Source: a virus (taxonomy: Duplodnaviria; Caudoviricetes). Taken from it: a stretch of DNA of 64,000 nucleotides. Shown here in pieces: positions 5,231 to 32,253 of the stretch (positions are counted from its first letter, which is position 1; each line of letters starts with the position of its first letter). The stretch is taken from positions 119,209-183,208 of the IMG/VR virus record IMGVR_UViG_3300029288_007102; one strand, written 5' to 3'. A program made the translations under genes and the position numbers. Below the pieces are notes generated by a model, which worked only from the letters and a program-made list of their open reading frames with translations, was not told the origin of the DNA and did no database searches.

Positions 5231-6802
5231 TTGCCAGTCTATATAGAGTTGGCATATTTAGGATACCGAATGACATTAGAGCTATGCGTTTCCGGTCAGT
5301 ATGTATATTTCCGTAATCTTACCAACACCATCGTAGACAAATTAGACGACCACTTTTCGGTGTTTTTTCCGAATTATTGGTTTATGCCTTCTTTCAAGCA
5401 ACACTTCTCTGACGGAAAATTTCACTTCTACAACAAGACCTACAACCGTTTACCTGGGGGACTTGTTCCCCTTATTGAAGAATTTTTGATAATTGAAAAT
5501 ATCCCATACGAGAAGAGAGATACCCGTCAGATCAAACCTTTGGCAACCGGGGTAGACTTCTCTTTGGTTGGGGCTGAGGAGCGGAGTTACCAGATTGAGA
5601 CAGTAAAGACAATCCTTTCTCAGAAGGCCATAATTGCCAACTCTGCCACGAACGCAGGTAAAACTGAGCTGGCCGCAATTGCCATAAAGATCTATCTGGA
5701 AAGCGGCTTTAAGGTCCTTTGGATTGTACATCGGAAGGCTTTAATGCGTCAGACAGCCAAACGTCTTATGCGTAGACTATCTCTTAAAGAGAGCGACATT
5801 GGGCTTATAGGAGATGGTGCTTTTGATCCTGAAAAGCAGCTTACGATTTCCATGATCCAAACTCTATCCCGATTAGCCATTGGGAAAGAGAAAGCTAATT
5901 CCAAAGTGGCAAGAAAATTGTTGGAAGAATGTGATGCTGTAATTGTAGATGAAGTCCATCACGGCAAATCAGATTCTTATTATAAAACCTTAATGAAAAT
6001 GCCTGCTGTTTATAGGCTAGGCTTATCAGGAACTGCCCTGAAACAAAAAGAGTTAGACTTGATGAGGATCAAGGCGGCAATCAGTTCTAATGTTTGTGTT
6101 ATCACCAATGATTTTTTGATTCAAGAGGGGTATTCAGCTAAACCGACTATTTATCTGCATACCATTGAAAATATGACTATTGATAAGAAGACGCCATCCC
6201 GGGATGAATTATTGTATGAAGAAACCGAAGATGAACGTGGCGAACCTCAAAAAGAACTGGTTTTAGACGAAAGAGGAAGGTCGATAGTGGTGACGCCGGG
6301 CGTTTATCGCATAGGCGTTATAAACAACGATGGATTCAACGAGCAGGTAGCGGACATTGCCAAGAAGGACTCAAAAATCGGCAATGTCTTAATTATCGTC
6401 AATCGTACTGAACATGGCGAGAATATCCTGGCAAAACTTGATAAAAGATTTAAGGCAGATCTGATATTTTCCGAACTAGGTACCGAAGAGGTTATGCAGA
6501 AGCTAGAGAACTTCCGGACAGGTAAGACAGAGATCTTAATTTCTACGCCTTTGGTTGACGAAGGTTTGGATTTACCGAACATAAAAATATTGATCTTGGC
6601 AGCAGGCGGTGAATCACCCAGCCAGTTGTTGCAGAGGGTAGGAAGGGGGTTGAGAAAGAAGGGCGGAGACAACCGCTTATACGTCCATGATTTTATTAAC
6701 TGTTGCCACCATCTATTGTTGAGCCAATCAATTAAACGATTTGACGAATATGTGAATGAAAAGTTTGAAATAATCCAAGACGGAGTTCGGTTGGAGGGTT
6801 AA
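5231..6802 (+). CDS. superfamily II DNA helicase (UvsW-like)
   Basis: ATNAGKT (Walker A), IVDEVHH, GLSGT, DEGLDLP, QRVGRGLR; true start may be ATG ~5270. Confidence 0.9.
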   Translation: MPVYIELAYLGYRMTLELCVSGQYVYFRNLTNTIVDKLDDHFSVFFPNYWFMPSFKQHFSDGKFHFYNKTYNRLPGGLVPLIEEFLIIENIPYEKRDTRQIKPLATGVDFSLVGAEERSYQIETVKTILSQKAIIANSATNAGKTELAAIAIKIYLESGFKVLWIVHRKALMRQTAKRLMRRLSLKESDIGLIGDGAFDPEKQLTISMIQTLSRLAIGKEKANSKVARKLLEECDAVIVDEVHHGKSDSYYKTLMKMPAVYRLGLSGTALKQKELDLMRIKAAISSNVCVITNDFLIQEGYSAKPTIYLHTIENMTIDKKTPSRDELLYEETEDERGEPQKELVLDERGRSIVVTPGVYRIGVINNDGFNEQVADIAKKDSKIGNVLIIVNRTEHGENILAKLDKRFKADLIFSELGTEEVMQKLENFRTGKTEILISTPLVDEGLDLPNIKILILAAGGESPSQLLQRVGRGLRKKGGDNRLYVHDFINCCHHLLLSQSIKRFDEYVNEKFEIIQDGVRLEG

Positions 6803-6803
6803 G

Positions 6804-7427
6804 ATGACAGGTAAAGATTTGGCGATTTTGTCAAAATTGAAGCAAGGGTTTGGAGTTAGACAACAGAAGGAAAGGAATTCTCGGTTAAAGGCGATGCAGC
6901 AAACCTTATCAGAAGAAGATAAGAAAATTTTCTCCCTTTTAGAGTCGTTCTACAACAGATATAAAGAAAAATATAAAGTATCCCCCAAAGAGTTAGCTTG
7001 GTTTGACGAATGCAAATTCGATTTCAGACGTTTTAGGATCTGGAAACAAATGAAAACAATCCATAAAATTTTAGTTCGTCTGGACATAGACCAAGAAAAA
7101 TATTTGGGGTTTTTATTTAGAAACACCTGGTACCCAAAAATCTACGCTTTAGCTACCCCATTTTACACTGGACCTTACTTATCTTACTGTATGAAAGATG
7201 GGACTTTACTCCCGGATGAATCTAAAAAATATTGGGATAAATTTGTCCAAAAAGGATTAAATACTTTCCACTTTAAGACTAGAGAAGATCTCTACAAAAA
7301 CAAACCAGATTTTACCGTTTGGTTGCCTGAAGCTTACCTAGCAAAAGATGAGGTTTACCAAACCTTATTTCGCCAAGGAATATTCTCAAAATTACCTCCT
7401 AAATCTACACACTCTTTAGAGGTTTAA
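6804..7427 (+). CDS. hypothetical protein in replication block
   Basis: 207-aa ORF coupled to the helicase. Confidence 0.6.
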   Translation: MTGKDLAILSKLKQGFGVRQQKERNSRLKAMQQTLSEEDKKIFSLLESFYNRYKEKYKVSPKELAWFDECKFDFRRFRIWKQMKTIHKILVRLDIDQEKYLGFLFRNTWYPKIYALATPFYTGPYLSYCMKDGTLLPDESKKYWDKFVQKGLNTFHFKTREDLYKNKPDFTVWLPEAYLAKDEVYQTLFRQGIFSKLPPKSTHSLEV

Positions 7428-24611: not shown

Positions 24612-25157
24612 ATGCTACTTTGTGGGACATTGGATACACAACAGGCTGAAAGATTTTCTAAGTTTAATACATGTGTGGTTAGAGGTCTGTCTCTCCAGCA
24701 AAAACCGATAATAGATAGGTATGCGGAAGGTAAGATAGATGTATGGATGCCTGCGGTAAATATGATTGTAAGATGCAGGGGGAATACAGACAAAACACAA
24801 ATCAAACTTAAGTCTTTATTTTATGACTATGGTTTTGTCTTATATGAGACGGATGAAATAAAAAAAGATTTATATGAGCTTTTTGGAAATCTGTTACATT
24901 GTCAGATGTTAAAGGGGTTTTGTTTTTTAGAGAAAGGGCAGATTTCTCAAATTAATGAGGCCATTTATAAGTTGGAAGGAAAACCAAAGGTATATTTTGA
25001 GGTTGGGGATTTGGTGAATGTGAAGAAGGGGCCTTGGTCTCATTTGACAGGGAAGGTGATTGAGGTGGGGGGAGATAAAGTGAAGGTGGGTATATTTGCT
25101 ATGGGTAGAGTAACCCCTATAGGTTTTAGTATGGAAATGATAGAGAGGGCGATATGA
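24612..25157 (+). CDS. NusG/RfaH-like transcription factor
   Basis: VWMP...LFYDYGFV (NGN-like); FEVGDLVNVKKGPWSHLTGKVIEV...FAMGRVTP (KOW). Confidence 0.75.
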   Translation: MLLCGTLDTQQAERFSKFNTCVVRGLSLQQKPIIDRYAEGKIDVWMPAVNMIVRCRGNTDKTQIKLKSLFYDYGFVLYETDEIKKDLYELFGNLLHCQMLKGFCFLEKGQISQINEAIYKLEGKPKVYFEVGDLVNVKKGPWSHLTGKVIEVGGDKVKVGIFAMGRVTPIGFSMEMIERAI

Positions 25158-25315: not shown

Positions 25316-25753
25316 ATGATTACAGATAACCCGGAGTTTTTGGAAAAGAAGGTGAAAGAGGATATTGTTAAATGGTGGGGAAAACCATTAGATGATGAGT
25401 CCTTCCCTTTTCATCTTTCTTTTATATATCATCCAACTGAGGTGCCGTTGTCGGAGATTTACTCGGATGATTCTTCTTTATGGAAACAATGGGGGTTAGT
25501 TAAAGTTTGGGCGAAGCTGAAAAATAAAATCCCAATGTTGATAATTTATAACTGTGAGGGTCCTATTGTTTATTTCTGTTTTACTTATAATGATGAGATC
25601 GCAACAGTGGCCGGAGAACACTTCCCAAAATTTGTGGCATATAGTTTGGTGATGAAGGGGATGCCAAATTTGTGCTCTGTGTTTTTGTTATATGATCTGT
25701 TGGCTTTAGATAAAAAACTATTTGAGGGGTTGAAGCCTCACGAAAGGGAATAA
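25316..25753 (+). CDS. hypothetical protein
   Basis: 145-aa ORF preceded by a G11 run. Confidence 0.55.
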   Translation: MITDNPEFLEKKVKEDIVKWWGKPLDDESFPFHLSFIYHPTEVPLSEIYSDDSSLWKQWGLVKVWAKLKNKIPMLIIYNCEGPIVYFCFTYNDEIATVAGEHFPKFVAYSLVMKGMPNLCSVFLLYDLLALDKKLFEGLKPHERE

Positions 25754-25946
25754 AAATGACAGAAGGGAAAATTGAAGTCTATTATGAGTTTATAGATGGT
25801 TCGCCAATGGTGCCGAAAGATAATTCGGACTGGGCTAAGATTAATAAAGAGGTTATGGATATAGCTAAAGCTATGCAGAGTACAGGGATAAAAAAAATGG
25901 AATTGAAGGTGCCTGGTGTAGAAAAGGTTCTTGAGGACAAGAAACC

Positions 25947-26510
25947 GTGAAGATAAAAACTTTAAAAAATTGGATAAGGATCAGGACGGTTATAAATGGT
26001 TTGGCCTTTGTTTTTTTGGTGTGTGTTGGTATGGTTATGGTTGATGCGGCACTTGTTGCCAAACAGACATTAAAGAAGATTGCATTGGAGATAACCTTTA
26101 TTGGACCAGAAAATCTGGAATATTTAGGGGAATATGATACTACGGCTTATTCTGATCGCTTTAAAGAGACGACGGGTAAGCCTTCTATAGAAATTATTGA
26201 ACAGACAGGTAAGGGGGAAAAGAAGACGATTCTTCGGGAACGGAGTGATGAGAGATTGTTTACGGCAAGTGGCCTTCCGGTTGATGAGGAAACGATAGCT
26301 GTCAGTAGAGATATGTTAAGATCTGGGGAGTTTTATTATGGGGAGAAGTTGTGGGTGCCACAATTACACAAAAGTTTTACGGTAAAAGATAAGATGGGAT
26401 TAGATAAATATGGGAGAGAGATAGCCCGGCGGTTGGATGTTTTTTCTTTTAATAGAAAATATGTAGATAGTTTTGGGTTGAAAAAATTAAAAATATATAA
26501 AATAAGATGA
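25947..26510 (+). CDS. membrane-anchored 3D-domain (lytic transglycosylase-like) protein
   Basis: TM helix; TTAYS, TASG, IAVSRD, VKDKMG, RLDVF. Confidence 0.75.
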   Translation: MKIKTLKNWIRIRTVINGLAFVFLVCVGMVMVDAALVAKQTLKKIALEITFIGPENLEYLGEYDTTAYSDRFKETTGKPSIEIIEQTGKGEKKTILRERSDERLFTASGLPVDEETIAVSRDMLRSGEFYYGEKLWVPQLHKSFTVKDKMGLDKYGREIARRLDVFSFNRKYVDSFGLKKLKIYKIR

Positions 26511-26535
26511 GAGATGTTATTTTTAAATAATTTGC

Positions 26536-26564
26536 TTGACAAGGAGATGGTTGTATAGTAGTAT
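26536..26564 (+). promoter_or_regulatory. sigma70-type promoter driving the hairpin array
   Basis: TTGACA (26536-41), 17 nt spacer, TAGTAT (26559-64). Confidence 0.75.
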
Positions 26565-26591
26565 AGTTGTATCAAAGATAAACAAAAGTTT

Positions 26592-26931
26592 AGGCATCGG
26601 TGGTTCCTATTATATCGTGGAATCAGCCCTTCGGGGCTGAGCAAATTACCACCCGCCTTTTTTTTATAATGATGGGCACAAGGGGTTCCTAACAAAAAAA
26701 AGACTAACACTCTTCCTAATACCCCTCGCTCTATAATATTTGGGCATAAGCGGTTCCTAACATAAAATCCCGTTAAGATTCTACTGCTCGCCCTACTAAT
26801 TAAAAGGCATAAGCCGTTCCTAACAATTTCAATTGGTGAAAATATACGGCTCGCCTTCTATTAAAAGGCATATAGAGGTTCCTAACAAAAATCAAGCCCT
26901 TCGGGGCACCTGCGATAATACCTCTCGCCTT
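26592..26931 (+). ncRNA. array of five structurally conserved hairpin RNAs
   Basis: Units 26592-658, 26674-731, 26742-793, 26804-857, 26865-931; consensus GGC-A(2-3 nt)-RGNNGT-TCCTA(AC)-variable-T-ACNNCY-C-GCY with compensatory changes. Confidence 0.8.
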
Positions 26932-26956
26932 ATTTTGAATGAAAAGGAGAATGAAA

Positions 26957-28879
26957 ATGGAATCCACGATCAGACTGTTCAAAGCTTTACCTATCACTAA
27001 GAAGGGGAAAAAGACTAACAAATCCTTATTGACGCAAACTGTCAAGAAGGGTTTTATTTTTGCCCCAGAGGTTGTCGCTAATTATAGTGAAGCGGAATTG
27101 CAGACTCTCGTTAAGGTAGTAGAGGAAAACCTTGGGCTGTCTGCAGACAAGATGAATAATGCGTTTCATAAGTCCTGGGGGAAAGTGGCGACAGCCAGCA
27201 TAGAGCAGCTAGTTGCCGAACAGATCGTGCATTATATGACTACCTATGGTTTTGAACGCTTGGGTATATATAATAAGGATACAGTATATATCCCTACTGA
27301 GAAGTTGAAGATCCCCAAGATAGATGTAGAAAAATTCCCCTTGATGGTTGTTAAGGGGTATACCAAAGTGGAGCTGAAATATAAGCTGATTGTTCTTTTG
27401 AGTTCCGGGGTTGCCCTGAAAGAAGATACCAAGAGGGATGTCGTTGATGTAGCATTGTTTATTGGGCTGACAGAGTATGATATTTCCTTGATCAGGAACA
27501 AGGAAGTTAGGGTGGCCTTGTTTGATTACCTTGGGATGATCCCAGATAATCCTATTGAGTTTCTGCGGTTTATGGTTTATAAATCTATCAATAAAACTCT
27601 GTTGATCAAAGACAGGGCAACCATTGCTGAGATAAAGATGAAGGACAATCTGGCGGCTCTTCGGTTGCTTGAGCAGTACCGGGAGAAATATGGCCTGAGT
27701 AGATTGGCGGAGATCTTCTATCGGTTTAAACCTTTGTTCCTGGCTTTTAGGTCTAACAAGAGTTTGAAGGTTATTATTAATAAGGTAAGGAAGCTTGCCC
27801 TAACTAACCATAAACCTATGGTGGAAGATTACTTGAATACCATTACTGCTTTGATCAAAAGAGGTGAGGAGATCGATAAGGCTAAATTAAAATCTGAACT
27901 GAAAAGGGTAAACACTTTTAGGAAGATTCGTCTGGCTTACGCCTTGAACTTCCGGCTGACCGATGCAGGTTCCATTTTGTATAGGGTGAGGAACGGGAAG
28001 AGTTTTGCTACTGGGTTTAAGTTCGACGGGCAGAAAGAGGCAAAAGGTATTTTGAAGATTGTTCTTAAATCCATTGCCAAGGACATTGCAGAGAATGTGG
28101 CGGGGAAGAAGGTTTATCTCCCCTCTAATATACAGTATGCTTTACCTGCGACAGAGAAGCAGTTTACTGGATATTTTCCTAGTGGCTCTTATGTGTCTGT
28201 CCCTAAGGACATGATTTTTGGAGTACATTGGACGAATGTTGGTGATAGTAAAGGACTGTATAGTGATGGCCGGGTTGACCTAGATCTGTCTTTGATTTCG
28301 GTAGATGGGAAATTTGGTTGGGATAGATCCTACCGAAATGAAGAAGGCAGTATTTTATTCTCCGGAGATATGACTGACGCTCCTAAACCTAATGGGGCGA
28401 CGGAGCTTTTTTATGTAAAGCGGCAAGAGAAAATGGCTGCCATTCTAATGGTGAACTTCTTCAATGGTGGGGATTTTAGTGAAAACAAACAAGATGTCCC
28501 TTTTGATATTATCGTAGCGAAGGAACAGGCTAAAAACTTTAAGCAAAATTATATGGTTGATCCTAACAATGTGGTGGCCATTTCTAAGTCTGGCATTAAG
28601 GCTCAGCAGAAAGTATTGGGGTTGTTAGTGTCTACCCCCGAGGAAAGTAGATTTTACTTCGCAGAGTCTTATCTTGGCAAAGGGATAACTTCCAGGGAAA
28701 CGGAATACGTTGCGGCTACTCGGCAATATTTCTCTGATTTCTATAAGAACCCCATTAGTTTGAATGAAATCTTGGAAGAGGCTGGGGTTAAATTTGTAAA
28801 AGACCCGGAGAAAGCGGATATTGACCTCTCTCCTGAGAAGTTGGAGAAGGATACTATTTTGTCGCTGTTGGCGGCATAA
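26957..28879 (+). CDS. large helical protein with C-terminal TerD-like domain (possible Ro/TROVE-like RNA-binding scaffold)
   Basis: ~400-aa basic helical region then FGVHW..RVDLDLS..FSGDMTDAP..GATE; ATG 26957 follows AGGAG (track start 26939). Confidence 0.55.
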   Translation: MESTIRLFKALPITKKGKKTNKSLLTQTVKKGFIFAPEVVANYSEAELQTLVKVVEENLGLSADKMNNAFHKSWGKVATASIEQLVAEQIVHYMTTYGFERLGIYNKDTVYIPTEKLKIPKIDVEKFPLMVVKGYTKVELKYKLIVLLSSGVALKEDTKRDVVDVALFIGLTEYDISLIRNKEVRVALFDYLGMIPDNPIEFLRFMVYKSINKTLLIKDRATIAEIKMKDNLAALRLLEQYREKYGLSRLAEIFYRFKPLFLAFRSNKSLKVIINKVRKLALTNHKPMVEDYLNTITALIKRGEEIDKAKLKSELKRVNTFRKIRLAYALNFRLTDAGSILYRVRNGKSFATGFKFDGQKEAKGILKIVLKSIAKDIAENVAGKKVYLPSNIQYALPATEKQFTGYFPSGSYVSVPKDMIFGVHWTNVGDSKGLYSDGRVDLDLSLISVDGKFGWDRSYRNEEGSILFSGDMTDAPKPNGATELFYVKRQEKMAAILMVNFFNGGDFSENKQDVPFDIIVAKEQAKNFKQNYMVDPNNVVAISKSGIKAQQKVLGLLVSTPEESRFYFAESYLGKGITSRETEYVAATRQYFSDFYKNPISLNEILEEAGVKFVKDPEKADIDLSPEKLEKDTILSLLAA

Positions 28880-29156
28880 CAAGTCCAAGGCACCGTACAT
28901 CCACTTAAACGTGAGGTGGGTAGGTGATAATACAGCTAAAAAGAGGCGTTGATCCTAAGCCAAACAGTGCTGAGAGGGTTGGTAAGGGGAGTCTCTCCTT
29001 GTGACATTTAAAAGAATTGCTCCCGCCAGGGGATTGCTTCCCGGGACGCTTATCGGAGGAGGCCTGGAGAACGATAAGACCTGACTTGCTCGGGACAGAT
29101 GCGAGAAGCATAGCAGACATTAGCAAGTGGCTTGACGAGCCCGGAGAGACGGGCAC
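28880..29156 (+). ncRNA. putative ~275-nt structured ncRNA
   Basis: GC-rich intergenic region closed by CAAGTC/GGCTTG, several helices and a 3' hairpin GCCCG-GAGAGA-CGGGC. Confidence 0.55.
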
Positions 29157-29180
29157 TTAGAAATAAGGGGAAGAAGAGAG

Positions 29181-30269
29181 ATGGCCAAAATAGATTTGGT
29201 TGAGATGCATAAGAGAAGAGATCTTCGTTTAGTTACCCGCAAGAAACACCCTACATTAGATTTATATATCTGGAACTATACACCTGAATGTCAATATAGC
29301 CGGGCTTGGGATGAGTACACCAAGATGGCTAGAGGATTGATTACTGATGGTGAAGGGAATATTGTTGCCAGACCTTTCAGTAAATTTTTCAATTTAAATG
29401 AAGCAGAAGAAACGAAGATAGAAAACTTACCATTAGAGATCCCGGAGATAACGGAGAAGGTTGACGGGAGCCTTGCCATACAATATTATGATGGTGGAGA
29501 TAGGGTTTGTATTGCTACCCGGGGAAGTTTTGAGTCTGAACAGGCAATCTTTGCTACAGACTGGCTTTACCGAAAAGGGTATGTTAAAAATGCTTTTAAA
29601 GAAGAATATACTTATTTATGGGAAATAATATATCCACAGAATCGTATAGTTGTTTCTTATGGTGATTTTTCCGGCTTGATCTTACTTGCTGTTGTTGAAA
29701 TTGAAACTGGCAAGGAGATAGATCATGTGCAAGAGGCACAAATATTAGGGGTGAGATCTTCGCAAAGAATAAATAAAACAGTTGATGAGTTAGTGAGTAT
29801 TTGCAAAGACACTTCTATAAAAGGTACAGAGATGGAGGGCTTTGTTCTTAAATATAGTAATGGCCTGAGGGTTAAGACAAAGACGGAAGAGTATATGAGA
29901 CTTCATCGGATGATCACCCATTTTTCTTCTAAGGTTATTTGGGAGATCCTGGCTAAAGGGGAGACCATTGCGGTTTATTTGGAGCAGGTACCGGATGAAT
30001 TTTTCCAATGGGCAAAGGAGAAGGAGAGAGAACTTAAAGATAATTATGCGGGAGTTTATGCTACTATTATATTAGGTTATAATGATGTAAAGGATCTTCC
30101 TACCCGGAAAGACCAAGCCTTAAGGATAATGAAGGATTATAAGGCGGTCTCTGGTGGAATATTCAGTTTGTTGGATGATAAGCAGAGTAACTTGAATGAT
30201 TATATCTGGAAGATGATTAAGCCGGAATATGAGTTGCCGTTTAAGGATGTTAACCGGGAGGCAGAGTGA
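29181..30269 (+). CDS. RNA ligase 1 (T4 Rnl1/RnlA-like)
   Basis: ARGLI, ARPFSKFFN, EKVDGSL, ATRGSF, EIIYPQNRIVV, EGFV, KTKTEEY. Confidence 0.9.
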   Translation: MAKIDLVEMHKRRDLRLVTRKKHPTLDLYIWNYTPECQYSRAWDEYTKMARGLITDGEGNIVARPFSKFFNLNEAEETKIENLPLEIPEITEKVDGSLAIQYYDGGDRVCIATRGSFESEQAIFATDWLYRKGYVKNAFKEEYTYLWEIIYPQNRIVVSYGDFSGLILLAVVEIETGKEIDHVQEAQILGVRSSQRINKTVDELVSICKDTSIKGTEMEGFVLKYSNGLRVKTKTEEYMRLHRMITHFSSKVIWEILAKGETIAVYLEQVPDEFFQWAKEKERELKDNYAGVYATIILGYNDVKDLPTRKDQALRIMKDYKAVSGGIFSLLDDKQSNLNDYIWKMIKPEYELPFKDVNREAE

Positions 30270-30673
30270 AGCGGAAGAAGAATTACTTTAAGCCTCTAAA
30301 AGGTTTGTCGGATGGGGTAACTGTATTCTTGGCCAGGCTAGATGAAGAAATGAAATCCCCGTCGTCAGAGAATAGGGGAAGGGTGATAGCAAAACTTTGC
30401 AATGATCTTGACATGCTTAACGATACGATAAGGTATGGCTATCTTGGTGTGGATTACAGGAAAGATAAAAAATGATAGAGAGATATTTAAACTTATAGTC
30501 AGGGGGGGGTGGTTCCTTTGGGAGAAAAATCGAGAGAAGTGAGAAGAAATAACGACGGTTCCCGTACAGAGAAAGTAAAGTATGATGATGGTAGTGGGCA
30601 TGATAAGACTACCAGGAATGGCGATTTTGTGTCATACAAAAAATATAAAGGGAAATAAATGTTGGTTATTTTT

Positions 30674-30806
30674 GATAGGTGTGGTGGTCTGGCGAAACCA
30701 TCGTTAACACTAGTGCGAGTTGAGAGCCTCGCCCGTAAACATTAAAATGTGTGTCTGCTACTAGCGGCTGAAGGACACAAAGTAGGTTCGAATCCTATGC
30801 CTATCA
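30674..30806 (+). ncRNA. tRNA-like RNA with ~80-nt structured insert replacing the anticodon arm
   Basis: Acceptor GATAGGT/GCCTATC+A, D-like arm, canonical T arm GTAGG-TTCGAAT-CCTAT. Confidence 0.65.
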
Positions 30807-30818
30807 AAAATATTATAA

Positions 30819-30889
30819 CTGGGTGAGGTGTTGCGGTAGCATTTGCGGCCTGGGACCGTAAGGGGAAAGTTCGACTCTTTCCATCCAGA
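30819..30889 (+). tRNA. tRNA-Pro(TGG), atypical A8/C33, no encoded CCA
   Basis: CTGGGTG/CATCCAG acceptor, TGCGG-CCTGGGA-CCGTA, GAAAG-TTCGACT-CTTTC, A73. Confidence 0.8.
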
Positions 30890-30894
30890 AAGTT

Positions 30895-30983
30895 TAGATT
30901 GGCTGGCTATAAGACGGAGAATCTCACGCAGTAAGATATCTACTTGTAAATAGCTTTCCAAGAGAGGGTATCCAGCTAGTCTA
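30895..30983 (+). ncRNA. putative small structured RNA
   Basis: 12-bp closing helix TAGATTGGCTGG/CCAGCTAGTCTA (G-U pairs on + strand) enclosing small hairpins. Confidence 0.45.
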
Positions 30984-30998
30984 TTAAAGGATGTTTCT

Positions 30999-31163
30999 AT
31001 GAACTGTGAAGGTTGTGGAGTATTGTTTGGCGATCTTGGTGAGGGGTATTCTTGTGACACTTTCTATGAGGACGGTAAGGTTGTGGAGAGTATAACTTGT
31101 GATATTTGTGGGTTCACAAAAACACATGAAGTCTTATCCCCGGCCTGTAGTGTAAATACCTAG
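30999..31163 (+). CDS. small zinc-ribbon protein (not in ORF track)
   Basis: MNCEGC...TCDICGF, 54 aa. Confidence 0.45.
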   Translation: MNCEGCGVLFGDLGEGYSCDTFYEDGKVVESITCDICGFTKTHEVLSPACSVNT

Positions 31164-31213
31164 GCTAGCACGGCCACAGGCAAGAGCAGGCTGTAATGTC
31201 TGCCAGGCTGGGG
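31138..31213 (+). ncRNA. tRNA-like RNA with vestigial anticodon arm
   Basis: CCCCGGCCTG/CAGGCTGGGG stem, TA, GTGT..GG..GCAC D-like arm, GCC-ACA-GGC, GCAGGC-TGTAAT-GTCTGC. Confidence 0.5.
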
Positions 31214-31233
31214 TTAAAATAAGGAGATAGATA

Positions 31234-32253
31234 GTGATTGAAAGAGAAATGGCGGAAGCCAATAAAATATTAGTAATCAGAACCGGGTCGCATATGTATG
31301 GGACTAATCTCCCGAATTCTGATGAGGATAAGATGGGGGTGTTTATAGCTGACGAAGATTACTATCTTGGGTTGAAGACGGTAGAAGAAGTGGATTTTTC
31401 TGTACAGGAGAAGGATGAAAGAGGAAAGAATACAAAGGATGCTCTGGATTATAAGCTTTACGAGTTTAAGAAGTATATAAAGCTTGCTTGTGATTGTAAT
31501 CCGAACATCATAGAAATGTTGTATGTCAATGAACCAAACATTCTTTTTATCAATGATTTTGGGAAGACGTTATTGGAGCATCGGGAATTGTTTCCTAACC
31601 AGAGAGCTTACTATAAGTTTATTGGGTATGCCCACTCTCAGAAGCATAAGATGATTATAAAGGGGGATCATTACAGCCAAATTATGGCAGCCCATGCCTA
31701 TTTGAAGGAGCTGCCAAACCGGGCCATAATGAAAGACTTTGAGAAGAAAGAGCTTCCGTTTTTGGTCTACAACAAGAATGCTTTTATTGAAGTGGGGGAT
31801 ATGAGGATCCCTACAAATACCACTGCCAAGAAGGCGACGGCTTTGCTGAAGGGGAGAATTGACCGCTTTGGTAATAGGACTGAGCTGATTAGTAAGTACG
31901 GTTATGATCTCAAGTTTGGTTCGCATTTGGTTAGGTTATTGGTTGAGGGGATAGAGTTGTTGAAGACTGGGGAGTTGCAGTATCCTATAAAAGAAAGGCA
32001 GCTGATCCTGGATGTCCGGCAAGGCAGATATACTCTCAAACAGGTATTTGATATGTATGATGAGTTGAGTAAGGAGATAGACTCAGTGTTTGCCAATACT
32101 AAGCTGCCGCATCACCCGGATATAAATAAGATAAATGATTTTTTGAAAAATATTGTTAAAAAGAAATGTGGTTTCCCAGTTAAAAGTTTCAGTAAAAATT
32201 GTGTAAGATGGATAGAAGGGGTATTAAATTTGCTAAAAGGGGGAAGATTGTAA
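31234..32253 (+). CDS. RlaP/NrdC.11-like Pol-beta nucleotidyltransferase
   Basis: TGSHMYGTNLPNSDEDKMGVF, NPNIIEML, GYDLKFGSHLVRLL. Confidence 0.85.
   Translation: MIEREMAEANKILVIRTGSHMYGTNLPNSDEDKMGVFIADEDYYLGLKTVEEVDFSVQEKDERGKNTKDALDYKLYEFKKYIKLACDCNPNIIEMLYVNEPNILFINDFGKTLLEHRELFPNQRAYYKFIGYAHSQKHKMIIKGDHYSQIMAAHAYLKELPNRAIMKDFEKKELPFLVYNKNAFIEVGDMRIPTNTTAKKATALLKGRIDRFGNRTELISKYGYDLKFGSHLVRLLVEGIELLKTGELQYPIKERQLILDVRQGRYTLKQVFDMYDELSKEIDSVFANTKLPHHPDINKINDFLKNIVKKKCGFPVKSFSKNCVRWIEGVLNLLKGGRL

What the first reader, a model, noticed from the sequence alone, without database searches (positions are those of the whole stretch)
26536..28879. Promoter-driven array of five covarying hairpin RNAs upstream of a helical + TerD-like protein
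Seen: after TTGACA-17-TAGTAT come five 52-67 nt units separated by 7-15 nt AT linkers. Each has an outer GGC/GCY helix, an asymmetric loop (ATC/ACA/ATA/ATA/ATAT opposite a single C), then a 6-bp helix whose sequence changes while pairing is kept: GGTGGT/ACCACC, AGGGGT/ACCCCT, AGCGGT/ACTGCT, AGCCGT/ACGGCT, AGAGGT/ACCTCT. A conserved unpaired TCCTAAC follows (TCCTATT in unit 1), then a variable region with its own hairpin. G-U pairs work only on the + strand. The array ends ~25 nt before the ATG of a ~640-aa basic helical protein with a TerD-like C-terminus. Established: Ro/TROVE-type scaffolds bind bulged-helix Y RNAs and cluster with RNA ligases; an Rnl1 gene follows here. Inference: a multi-RNA ribonucleoprotein in which a constant handle loads variable cargo loops (guides, decoys or adaptors). 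It fits no CRISPR, tRNA or riboswitch layout I recognise.
Basis: partly seen in the sequence, partly recalled or inferred. Interest (0 to 1): 0.85.

Follow-up and report, generated by a model that had tools for sequence, protein, structure and literature searches.

The report
Handle-and-cargo RNAs with TerD-fold partner
This phage carries five small folded RNAs that share one conserved "handle", placed directly before a gene for an uncharacterised 640-residue protein; the same RNA-protein pair recurs in every phage and most bacterial loci examined here (about 140), sometimes beside RNA-repair enzymes, so it looks like an undescribed counterpart of the Ro60/Y-RNA particle.

Summary
Window 26591-26931 (+) holds five units of one RNA module. 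Each has helix P1, a 3-nt/1-nt internal loop (A-N-A opposite C), a 6-bp helix P2, an invariant UCCUA and a variable apical "cargo".

- **The RNA is real.** A covariance model finds only these five copies in the 183-kb virus record. It finds 192 more in 68 related phage loci and about 140 in some 70 bacterial or MAG loci. All lie on the gene's strand and almost all directly upstream. All 11 base pairs covary (98.5% paired; 0 of 500 shuffles reach this).
- **No known family explains it.** Rfam 15 gives no match.
- **The partner protein is not Ro60.** It has a basic alpha-solenoid and a TerD-fold C-terminus. It has no Pfam family and is not TROVE by HMM or profile-profile comparison.
- **The context points to RNA repair.** In Chryseobacterium and Flavobacterium the order is RtcB, a tRNA carrying the handle in place of its anticodon loop, two or three handle RNAs, the protein, then often RlaP. 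This parallels rsr-yrlBA-rtcBA. In this window Rnl1 and RlaP follow.
- **Cargo.** It includes anticodon-loop-like hairpins, UUGG loops and, in relatives, tRNA bodies.

Best reading: a trans-acting RNP analogous, and probably not homologous, to Ro60/Y RNA. Binding, expression and function are untested. Two earlier notes of this scan reached the same reading on other genomes.

The parts
26536..26564 (+). Sigma-70-like promoter candidate TTGACA-17-TAGTAT, about 27 nt upstream of unit 1
   Evidence: matches 10 of 12 consensus positions. It is a consensus match only, and the region as a whole is not enriched for such sites.
26591..26659 (+). Handle RNA unit 1. P2 is GGUGGU/ACCACC. The cargo is a GC-rich hairpin with a UUCG tetraloop (CAGCCC-UUCG-GGGCUG). 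A U8 run follows the unit.
   Evidence: 41.9 bits, E 7.9e-09. MFE -27 kcal/mol, z -3.1. Sequence.
26673..26732 (+). Handle RNA unit 2. P2 is AGGGGU/ACCCCU. The cargo hairpin is AAGA-CUAACAC-UCUU, a 7-nt loop resembling an anticodon loop.
   Evidence: 45.3 bits..
26741..26794 (+). Handle RNA unit 3. P2 is AGCGGU/ACUGCU, with a G-U pair. The cargo is AAUC-CCGUUAA-GAUU, a variant of the recurrent CUGUUAA (GUU-anticodon-like) class.
   Evidence: 48 bits..
26804..26857 (+). Handle RNA unit 4. P2 is AGCCGU/ACGGCU. The cargo is UUUC-AAUUGGU-GAAA, a member of the recurrent UUGG-loop class.
   Evidence: 54.9 bits, E 2.4e-12..
26865..26931 (+). Handle RNA unit 5. It has a 4-nt loop AUAU, and P2 is AGAGGU/ACCUCU. 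The cargo is a GCCC-UUCG-GGGC hairpin.
   Evidence: 40.9 bits..
26957..28879 (+). Gene for the partner protein, 640 aa counted from ATG 26957 (GGAG lies 8 nt upstream). The longest ORF starts at 26939.
   Evidence: more than 2300 homologues, with the window's own entry 640 aa; 1647 representatives at the 50% identity level; the Atlas record starts at residue 7.
26957..28180 (+). N-terminal basic alpha-solenoid domain (pI 9.8). It is the presumed RNA-binding part.
   Evidence: model with pLDDT 88; no clear match outside its own family; pI. RNA binding is inferred, not shown.
28199..28732 (+). C-terminal TerD-fold beta-sandwich (acidic, pI about 5). It contains the conserved stretches VDLDLS and FSGDMTDA.
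   Evidence: Foldseek probability 1.0 to TerD structures 3ibz, 2kxt and 2qz7. Z 11.3 and 10.6; sequence; the Pfam TerD HMM does not match.
29181..30269 (+). Rnl1-type RNA ligase. It is context only, not a conserved neighbour of the module.
   Evidence: PF09511, E 6e-21; phrog_562; present within 4 kb in only 4 of 80 phage loci.
31234..32253 (+). RlaP nucleotidyltransferase (context).
   Evidence: PF10127, E 1.1e-20; phrog_388.

Best explanation
The five units are trans-acting small RNAs of one undescribed family. Each has a constant protein-binding handle: P1, an A-N-A/C internal loop, P2 ending in invariant G-C and U-A pairs, and single-stranded UCCUA. Each also presents a variable apical cargo.

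Proposed mechanism, with its basis:
1. The RNAs are co-transcribed with the downstream gene from a promoter near 26536 (inferred).
2. They are cut apart at the A/U-rich linkers (inferred).
3. Each is bound through its handle by the 640-aa protein, whose basic alpha-solenoid would hold the RNA (inferred).
4. The cargo consists of anticodon-loop-like hairpins, UUGG loops and stable tetraloop hairpins. In relatives it includes whole tRNA bodies in two topologies (shown).
5. The cargo would connect the particle to tRNAs or to tRNA-handling enzymes (inferred).
6. The particle would therefore act in tRNA/RNA damage surveillance or repair, alongside the RNA ligase (Rnl1 here, RtcB in Flavobacteriia) and RlaP (inferred from gene context).

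It works like the Ro60/Y-RNA particle but is not detectably homologous to it.
For: **Shown here**
- The handle is a real structured RNA. All 11 pairs have compensatory changes, 98.5% of cells are paired, and 0 of 500 shuffles reach this.
- It is strictly tied to the gene.
  - There are 5 hits in the 183-kb record, all at this site.
  - There are 192 hits in 68 of 71 phage loci. The three loci without hits are cut off at the gene's 5' end.
  - There are about 140 hits in roughly 70 of 80 bacterial or MAG loci, whose proteins are only 31-55% identical.
  - All significant hits share the gene's strand.
- Invariant unpaired nucleotides (A6, A10, C156, UCCUA) sit beside freely covarying helices, which fits sequence-specific protein recognition.
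- The N-terminal domain is strongly basic, pI 9.8.
- The context is RNA repair.
  - In Chryseobacterium the order is RtcB, a tRNA with the handle, three units, the protein, RlaP and an R2K ATP-grasp protein.
  - RtcB lies upstream in 19 bacterial loci and RlaP downstream in 11.
  - RtcB also appears in 2 phage loci and Rnl1 in 4 phage loci. This window adds its own Rnl1 and RlaP.
- tRNA-like cargo occurs in relatives.
  - tRNAs with the circularly permuted handle in place of the anticodon loop score 50-62 bits with Rfam tRNA.
  - Closed tRNA bodies sit inside a standard handle at L001:3870-3984 and L033:2421-2538.
- Cargo classes are non-random. There are 34 anticodon-loop-like 7-nt loops against 7.5 +/- 2.9 in shuffles. 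UUGG occurs in 43 of 222 cargos against 5.2 expected.

**From the literature**
- YrlA Y RNAs combine a Ro60-binding stem with a tRNA-like domain and lie next to rsr (PMC4201824).
- RlaP adds nucleotides to damaged RNA ends (bioRxiv 10.64898/2025.12.29.696909).
Against: - No binding, processing or expression data exist. The RNP is inferred from linkage and anatomy only.
- RNA-repair genes lie next to the module only in some lineages.
  - Most phage loci show tRNA genes or unrelated genes nearby.
  - In Selenomonadaceae, Saprospiraceae and Ktedonobacter the neighbours are housekeeping genes.
- The five units of this window carry no tRNA body.
- The anticodon-loop and NCCA-pairing readings of the cargo loops rest on pattern enrichment in A/U-rich loops, not on any test.
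- The role of the TerD domain is unknown.
Confidence: 0.6

Rival explanations
1. Decoy or sponge particle. The cargo hairpins mimic anticodon stem-loops and tRNA bodies. They would soak up tRNA-targeting nucleases (host anticodon nucleases, or competitors' ribotoxins) or tRNA-modifying enzymes. The protein would only stabilise or present the decoys, and repair would not be the particle's own job.
For: - Anticodon-loop-like 7-nt loops are enriched, 34 against 7.5 +/- 2.9.
- The same loops recur on different, covarying stems in unrelated loci: CUGUUAA about nine times, CUUGAAA about seven times, plus CUGUAAA, CUGCAAA and CUGAUAA.
- Phages carry arrays of up to 8 units with different cargo.
- The module often sits within phage tRNA gene clusters.
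Against: - The module also occurs in ordinary chromosomal contexts and inside rtcB-rlaP operons of Flavobacteriia. There a decoy against the cell's own nucleases makes less sense.
- Many cargos are plain tetraloop hairpins or UUGG loops, not anticodon-like.
- The stems are only 3-5 bp.
- No nuclease target is known.
Confidence: 0.15
2. Cis-acting leader. The hairpins would be part of the gene's 5' untranslated region and serve autoregulation (the protein binding its own leader), mRNA stabilisation or attenuation. They would not be free RNAs.
For: - The array is nearly always directly upstream on the same strand and ends about 25 nt before the start codon.
- A U8 run follows unit 1.
Against: - In several loci units lie downstream of the gene: L069, L075, L031, L004 and L032.
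- In L021 the units lie 1.3 kb upstream.
- In L086 another ORF separates the array from the gene.
- Copy number ranges from 1 to 8 with diversified, class-conserved cargo.
- One member is a full tRNA-shaped RNA that would be excised by tRNA-processing enzymes.
Confidence: 0.08
3. Type III toxin-antitoxin-like pair. A repeated RNA array upstream of a protein would be processed into units that neutralise that protein, as in ToxIN.
For: - The layout is the same: promoter, array of RNA repeats, then the protein gene on one strand.
- The module occurs in phages and as a stand-alone pair in chromosomes.
Against: - The units are not near-identical tandem repeats. They are divergent copies with covarying stems and different cargo.
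- Many loci have a single unit.
- The protein is 640 aa and no solved nuclease ranks above background for it.
- It is embedded in rtcB-rlaP operons together with a tRNA chimera.
Confidence: 0.07
4. Processing or splicing signal. The handle would be a recognition element that the protein, with a ligase, excises. In the tRNA chimeras it would be an intron-like insert whose removal matures a tRNA.
For: - The handle replaces the anticodon loop of otherwise canonical tRNAs that end in CCA or in a discriminator base.
- RNA ligases are frequent neighbours.
Against: - No conserved anticodon or 7-nt loop would remain after excision, because the linkers differ between loci.
- Most units stand alone, with nothing to splice.
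- No solved nuclease ranks above background for the protein.
Confidence: 0.05

Closest known systems
Ro60 (Rsr, TROVE + vWA) with Y RNAs YrlA/YrlB, for example the Salmonella rsr-yrlBA-rtcBA operon
   Same: - One to several small structured RNAs are encoded right next to a large helical-repeat protein gene.
- Each RNA is modular, with a protein-binding stem formed by the 5' and 3' ends plus an effector module.
- At least one RNA per locus in many relatives carries a tRNA-like domain.
- The pair occurs in bacteria and in phages.
- It lies in an operon with RtcB in some lineages (PMC4201824).
   Different: - The protein is not TROVE by Pfam or hhalign. It ends in a TerD-fold beta-sandwich instead of a vWA domain.
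- The handle lacks the GNCGAAN0-1G / GGUCCGA Ro-binding motif and matches no Rfam Y RNA model.
- Arrays reach 8 units.
- The tRNA module also occurs in the open, acceptor-end-out topology, with the handle in the anticodon position.
- A canonical TROVE gene sits elsewhere in one Chryseobacterium genome that also carries this module.
TerD-family proteins (tellurite-resistance TerD; PDB 2kxt, 3ibz, 2qz7)
   Same: The C-terminal 180 residues have the same beta-sandwich fold (Z 10.6-11.3; Foldseek probability 1.0). The stretches DLDLS and SGDMTD are conserved in this family. That these resemble TerD Ca2+-site signatures is recalled from memory, not tested.
   Different: - The Pfam TerD HMM does not match, even at E 10.
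- The domain is fused to a 400-residue basic helical domain.
- No ter operon genes are nearby.
- It is linked to an RNA.
MXAN_6230/SCO0854 family RING-domain proteins (NCBIfam NF041916, Pfam Prok-RING_4) of Actinomycetota
   Same: Predicted structures superpose over the whole length (TM 0.76 by query over 613 residues). There is a weak HMM match across residues 413-494 (E 6.6e-05).
   Different: - The score of 21 bits is far below the family cut-off of 600.
- There is no RING domain here.
- The function of that family is unknown, and whether it has RNA partners was not examined.
Type III toxin-antitoxin loci (ToxIN)
   Same: An array of RNA repeats lies directly upstream of, and is co-transcribed with, a protein gene. 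Such loci are found in phages and bacteria.
   Different: - The repeats here are divergent and covarying, with variable cargo.
- The protein is far larger, and no solved nuclease ranks above background for it.
- The surrounding genes are RNA-repair genes.

Membership tests
Y RNA / YrlA (Rfam Y RNA models) | Match to an Rfam Y RNA covariance model | tested here: not met
   The permissive Rfam scan of 25500-31500 lists no Y RNA family up to E 10. The gathering-threshold scans of the whole window and of 12 related loci return only tRNA.
Y RNA / YrlA (Rfam Y RNA models) | Ro60-binding motif GNCGAAN0-1G (bacteria) or GGUCCGA (vertebrates) near the 5' end | tested here: not met
   The handle consensus is NNGGCA-N-A-RRNRGU-UCCUA ... 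ACYNYY-C-GCC. The motif definition comes from PMC4201824.
Y RNA / YrlA (Rfam Y RNA models) | Encoded adjacent to a TROVE/Ro60 gene | tested here: not met
   There is no TROVE match in the 183-kb record, and the adjacent protein is not TROVE.
Y RNA / YrlA (Rfam Y RNA models) | A tRNA-like domain in at least one RNA of the locus | tested here: inconclusive
   It is met in many relatives: L001:3870-3984, L033:2421-2538, and tRNA-handle chimeras in at least 9 phage and 17 flavobacterial loci. It is not met by the five units of this window.
TROVE / Ro60 protein | Match to Pfam PF05731 or profile-profile similarity to TROVE proteins | tested here: not met
   hmmscan finds no family at E 0.01 and none at E 10 for the two halves. 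hhalign of A1 and A5 against an 8-sequence TROVE alignment gives probabilities of 0.2% and 0.8%.
TROVE / Ro60 protein | HEAT-repeat ring fold | tested here: inconclusive
   The N-domain model (pLDDT 88) aligns to phage phiLo Ro60 (9l5y_B) at Z 6.0, rmsd 5.4 over 155 residues, and to 1yvp_A at Z 5.8. Both are tied with many unrelated helical proteins, the best of which reaches Z 7.2.
TROVE / Ro60 protein | C-terminal vWA domain | tested here: not met
   The C-terminus is a TerD-type beta-sandwich.
TerD (Pfam PF02342) | Match to the Pfam TerD HMM | tested here: not met
   No hit for residues 400-646, even at E 10.
TerD (Pfam PF02342) | TerD beta-sandwich fold | tested here: met
   2qz7_B gives Z 11.3 over 148 residues and 2kxt gives Z 10.6 over 149 residues. 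Foldseek probability is 1.0.
Type III toxin-antitoxin (ToxIN-like) | Near-identical tandem RNA repeats | tested here: not met
   The units differ in P1, P2 and cargo; mean column identity in the seed alignment is 53%. No tandem-repeat finder was run.
Type III toxin-antitoxin (ToxIN-like) | Small endoribonuclease toxin | tested here: inconclusive
   The protein is 640 aa. No solved nuclease structure ranks above background in the searches. Absence from such lists does not exclude an active site.
tRNA | Cloverleaf detected by ARAGORN or Rfam RF00005 | tested here: not met
   None of the five units is called as tRNA. The tRNA-handle chimeras of relatives are called.
MXAN_6230/SCO0854 RING family (NF041916) | Score above the curated cut-off, and a RING domain | tested here: not met
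   The score is 21.3 bits against a cut-off of 600. No RING family is found by Pfam. Whole-length structural similarity is TM 0.76.

The most novel reading that the evidence does not exclude
This would be a modular 'handle-and-cargo' ribonucleoprotein system that is not homologous to Ro60/Y RNA. One scaffold protein loads a genome-encoded library of RNAs. Their cargos are parts of tRNA: anticodon-arm mimics of several identities, UUGG loops able to pair with NCCA 3' ends, and whole tRNA bodies in two circular permutations. The system would be used by bacteria for tRNA surveillance and repair. Phages would have expanded it into multi-unit arrays as a counter-measure to tRNA-targeting host defences.
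Probability: 0.3. Interest if true: 0.9.

Novelty: new variant of a known kind. Interest (0 to 1): 0.82.

Why it matters
Ro60/Y RNA is so far the only described class of bacterial RNP that pairs a large helical scaffold with tRNA-mimicking small RNAs in RNA-repair operons, and its function is still poorly understood.

- **A second, apparently independent solution.** It has a different protein fold at the C-terminus, no detectable sequence relation to TROVE, and a different RNA handle. That would show the arrangement is a recurrent answer to RNA damage.
- **Scale.** It would give a new RNA family. It would also give a new protein family with about 1650 clusters at 50% identity.
- **Tractability.** The system occurs in cultured Chryseobacterium, Flavobacterium and Pedobacter strains.
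- **A reusable tag.** The handle is small (about 30 constant nucleotides) and tolerates cargo from 9 nt to a whole tRNA in either topology. If binding is confirmed, it could serve as an RNA display tag.
- **Phage biology.** In phages the arrays may bear on how large phages protect translation from tRNA-cleaving defences.

Tried and rejected
- **RNA evidence.** The look-up of sequencing runs listed no RNA holder. One 'RNA?' wastewater run held 7% of the sampled words. When laid on the window it gave a single 241-nt contig inside the ORF (27691-27930) and nothing over the array. Three metatranscriptomes gave nothing. This says nothing about expression.
- **Phage records.** BLASTN of 26400-30400 against the phage GenBank collection found no match.
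- **Protein family libraries.** PHROGs gave nothing for the protein. A profile search of PDB sequences gave nothing at E 1.
- **N-domain fold searches.** Foldseek against PDB gave nothing at E 0.001. The ESM Atlas search matched only the protein's own family.
- **Fused forms.** A search for longer forms (1174-3350 aa) found none, which is weak evidence.
- **Closest relative.** The contig of P0003 (86% identical) has a 383-nt gap before the gene, but no DNA was available.
- **Permuted handle here.** No circularly permuted handle or tRNA chimera was found in the 183-kb record.
- **Local T-loop idea.** G-UUCCUAA-C in units 2-5 was considered as a local T-loop. It was rejected because the closing C is not conserved in other loci and positions 57 and 58 do not fit.
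- **K-turn idea.** A kink-turn reading of the 3-nt bulge was rejected because the flanking pairs covary as Watson-Crick pairs.
- **GUUCC/GGAAC pairing.** This pairing appears in some tRNA chimeras but is not conserved.
- **Complex prediction.** It was not used, because the tool does not take RNA.
Full report
**1. What is in the window**

Positions 26536-26564 match a sigma-70-type promoter, TTGACA-17-TAGTAT, at 10 of 12 positions. Promoter-like sites are not enriched in the region, so this is a consensus match only.

Five units follow. The covariance model places them at 26591-26659, 26673-26732, 26741-26794, 26804-26857 and 26865-26931. The A/U-rich linkers are 13, 8, 9 and 7 nt.

Each unit reads NNGGC - A(U/C)(C/A) - RNNNGU - UCCUA - cargo - ACNNNY - C - GCCNN. 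Each folds on its own into the proposed shape.

Unit 5 ends 25 nt before ATG 26957, which is preceded by GGAG. The alignment consensus begins MKSTIRLF, the window's own database entry is 640 aa, and the Atlas record starts at residue 7. The gene is therefore most likely 26957-28879, 640 aa, rather than the longest ORF from 26939.

**2. The RNA is real and is tied to the gene**

The protein has more than 2300 homologues in the 90%-clustered collection and 1647 representatives at the 50% level. Most come from large phage contigs.

In 80 IMG/VR loci the word GTTCCTA recurs one to seven times in the 400 nt before the homologous gene.

I built a covariance model (R1: 55 positions, 11 pairs) from 58 units. 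Its results:
- **This genome.** It finds only the five units in the window and in the whole 183-kb virus record.
- **Phage loci.** It finds 192 hits in 68 of the other 71 phage loci searched. All are on the gene's strand. The three loci without hits are cut off at the gene's 5' end.
- **Bacterial and MAG loci.** At E 0.01 or better it finds about 140 hits in roughly 70 of 80 genome loci. Their proteins are only 31-55% identical to this one.

On the 150 best phage hits every one of the 11 pairs shows compensatory changes. For example, pair 14-153 is AU 66, GC 32, UA 29 and CG 19. In total 98.5% of cells pair, against 78% in shuffles and 35-58% when partners are slid. None of 500 shuffles reaches the observed values.

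My seed selection required full P2 pairing, so P2 in the seed is circular evidence. P1 was not selected for, and it covaries just as well. The model-aligned set leans towards the structure, as the tool warns. G-U pairs and the uniform strand of the hits agree with transcription of the + strand.

The invariant positions are the C-G pair closing P1, A6 and A10 of the internal loop, the opposite bulged C, the last two P2 pairs (G-C, U-A) and UCCUA.

**3. It is not a known RNA family**

The permissive Rfam 15 scan of 25500-31500 lists only weak chance-level matches that lie outside the units. The gathering-threshold scan of the whole window returns four tRNAs elsewhere, and the same scan of 12 related loci returns only tRNA.

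ARAGORN does not call the units. The handle lacks the Ro60-binding motif of YrlA or vertebrate Y RNAs (PMC4201824).

**4. The cargo**

Cargo length runs from 9 nt to 86 nt. Four kinds recur.

- **Anticodon-loop-like hairpins.** These are short hairpins with 7-nt loops of the form Y-U-NNN-R-N. There are 34, against 7.5 +/- 2.9 in shuffles. The same loop recurs on different stems in unrelated loci. CUGUUAA sits on AUC/GAU, CUA/UAG and UCU/AGA. CUUGAAA sits on UUGA/UCAA, AGU/ACU and AAAA/UUUU. CUGUAAA, CUGCAAA, CUGAUAA, YUUACAU and CUCAUAC also occur.
- **UUGG loops.** Hairpins display UUGG(A/C/U). UUGG is the most enriched 4-mer, in 43 of 222 cargos against 5.2 expected. That UGGN could pair with a tRNA NCCA end, as in T-box RNAs, is my own speculation from general knowledge.
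- **GC-rich tetraloop hairpins.**
- **tRNA bodies, in two topologies.**
  - In L001:3870-3984 and L033:2421-2538 a closed acceptor stem, T arm and D arm sit inside a standard handle. This is the YrlA architecture.
  - In at least 9 phage and 17 flavobacterial loci an otherwise canonical tRNA has its anticodon loop replaced by a circularly permuted handle (3' half, short loop, 5' half). These score 50-62 bits with Rfam tRNA, and some encode CCA.

In this window:
- Units 1 and 5 carry UUCG-tetraloop hairpins.
- Unit 2 carries CUAACAC.
- Unit 3 carries CCGUUAA, a variant of the CUGUUAA class.
- Unit 4 carries AAUUGGU.
- No tRNA chimera exists in this genome.

**5. The protein**

No Pfam or PHROG family matches it.

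The AlphaFold2 model of the whole chain has pLDDT 75. Its C-terminal 180 residues are a TerD-type beta-sandwich: Foldseek probability 1.0 to 3ibz, 2kxt and 2qz7, and Z 11.3 and 10.6. The stretches VDLDLS and FSGDMTDA are conserved there.

The N-terminal 415 residues were modelled with 75 sequences (pLDDT 88). They form an alpha-solenoid with a small beta element. The best PDB match is Z 7.2 over 64 residues. Ro60 of phage phiLo appears at Z 6.0 over 155 residues, tied with many unrelated helical proteins. The Atlas search matches only the protein's own family.

For a direct test I took eight TROVE proteins from genomes of the Chryseobacterium host's taxonomic class and aligned them. I compared the profiles with hhalign, which gave probabilities of 0.2% and 0.8%. 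The phage record has no TROVE gene. One Chryseobacterium genome that carries the module also has a separate canonical TROVE gene.

The N-domain is basic (pI 9.8) and the C-domain acidic (pI 4.95).

The only whole-length structural relatives outside the family are actinobacterial MXAN_6230/SCO0854 RING-domain proteins, at TM 0.76 with a weak HMM match. Their function is unknown.

**6. Context**

In this window Rnl1 (29181-30269), tRNA-Pro and RlaP (31234-32253) follow. Across phage loci this is not conserved. Rnl1 lies within 4 kb in 4 of 80, RlaP in 3 and RtcB in 2, while tRNA gene clusters are common neighbours.

The informative case is Flavobacteriia. In Chryseobacterium sp. (L149) the order is:
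1. RtcB
2. the tRNA-handle chimera
3. three units
4. the protein
5. RlaP
6. an unknown ORF
7. an R2K ATP-grasp protein

.

RtcB lies upstream in 19 genome loci and RlaP downstream in 11. This parallels the Salmonella rsr-yrlBA-rtcBA operon (PMC4201824, PMC7790460).

In Selenomonadaceae, Saprospiraceae and Ktedonobacter the pair stands alone among housekeeping genes. The pair is thus a self-contained two-part module of cells and phages.

**7. Mechanism**

*Shown:*
- a structured, covarying RNA handle
- its strict linkage to the gene over deep divergence
- modular cargo that includes tRNA-shaped parts
- repeated association with two unrelated RNA ligase families and with RlaP

*Inferred:*
- The protein binds the handle through its basic solenoid.
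- The RNAs are released from a common transcript.
- The cargo links the particle to tRNAs or tRNA enzymes.
- The particle acts in tRNA/RNA damage surveillance or repair.

*Rivals considered:*
- A pure cis-leader role is unlikely. Units lie downstream of the gene in several loci, are separated from it by another ORF in L086, and include a complete tRNA-shaped RNA.
- A ToxIN-like pair is unlikely because the units are divergent and the context is repair.
- A decoy role for the anticodon-like cargo remains a live alternative, especially in phages.

**8. Comparison and novelty**

The system works like Ro60/Y RNA but fails every tested membership criterion of the Y RNA and TROVE families. I found no paper describing it. 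The 2016 survey of RNA repair systems by Burroughs and Aravind could not be read here, so a prior mention of the protein cannot be excluded.

Two earlier follow-up notes of this scan (e1-5468357, e1-4657586) reached the same reading on other genomes. They are not independent evidence.

**9. Verdict**

This is a new RNA family and a new protein family forming a probable Ro/Y-like particle. Interest is high. Function and binding remain to be shown.

Noticed in passing
window 30673-30806 (+): A tRNA-like RNA lies 12 nt before tRNA-Pro. It has the acceptor stem UGAUAGG/CCUAUCA and a canonical T arm (GUAGG-UUCGAAU-CCUAU), but about 80 nt of extra hairpins where the D and anticodon arms belong. Its folding energy is not unusual (z -1.3). 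It carries no handle motif.
   Followed up: partly
window 31130-31220 (+): A compact, strongly folding RNA (z -2.9) with a long closing stem lies about 20 nt before the RlaP gene. No homologues were examined.
   Followed up: partly
window 28880-29156: A 277-nt GC-rich gap with no + strand ORF separates the TerD-fold protein gene from Rnl1. I did not fold or compare it.
   Followed up: no
window 26650-26672: Unit 1 is followed directly by a run of eight T. With the handle stem this could terminate part of the transcripts and release unit 1 as a separate short RNA. The terminator scan did not call it.
   Followed up: no
window 24612-25157 (+): A 181-aa ORF upstream shows weak NusG/UpxY-type antiterminator similarity (NCBIfam TIGR00922 E 1e-08; UpxY E 2.6e-06). 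A phage-encoded NusG-like factor might bear on read-through of the structured array.
   Followed up: no
L086:7271-7993: In a 168-kb NCBI contig a 240-aa ORF with a weak NUMOD3 hit, resembling a homing endonuclease, sits between the four-unit array (6936-7200) and the protein gene (8001-). The array and the gene can therefore be separated.
   Followed up: partly
L149 (Chryseobacterium sp., NZ_CP180265.1), 5955-7078: Downstream of RlaP lie a 213-aa ORF with no family and an R2K-clade ATP-grasp protein. This pairing is conserved in 3-8 Chryseobacterium loci. They may be further members of the same RNA-repair operon.
   Followed up: partly
tRNA-handle chimeras, e.g. L011:3811-3928, L149:2699-2808: P2 of the permuted handle inside tRNAs is almost always AAAAGU/ACUUUU (or AAAGU/ACUUU), whereas P2 of stand-alone units varies freely. 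The reason is unknown.
   Followed up: no
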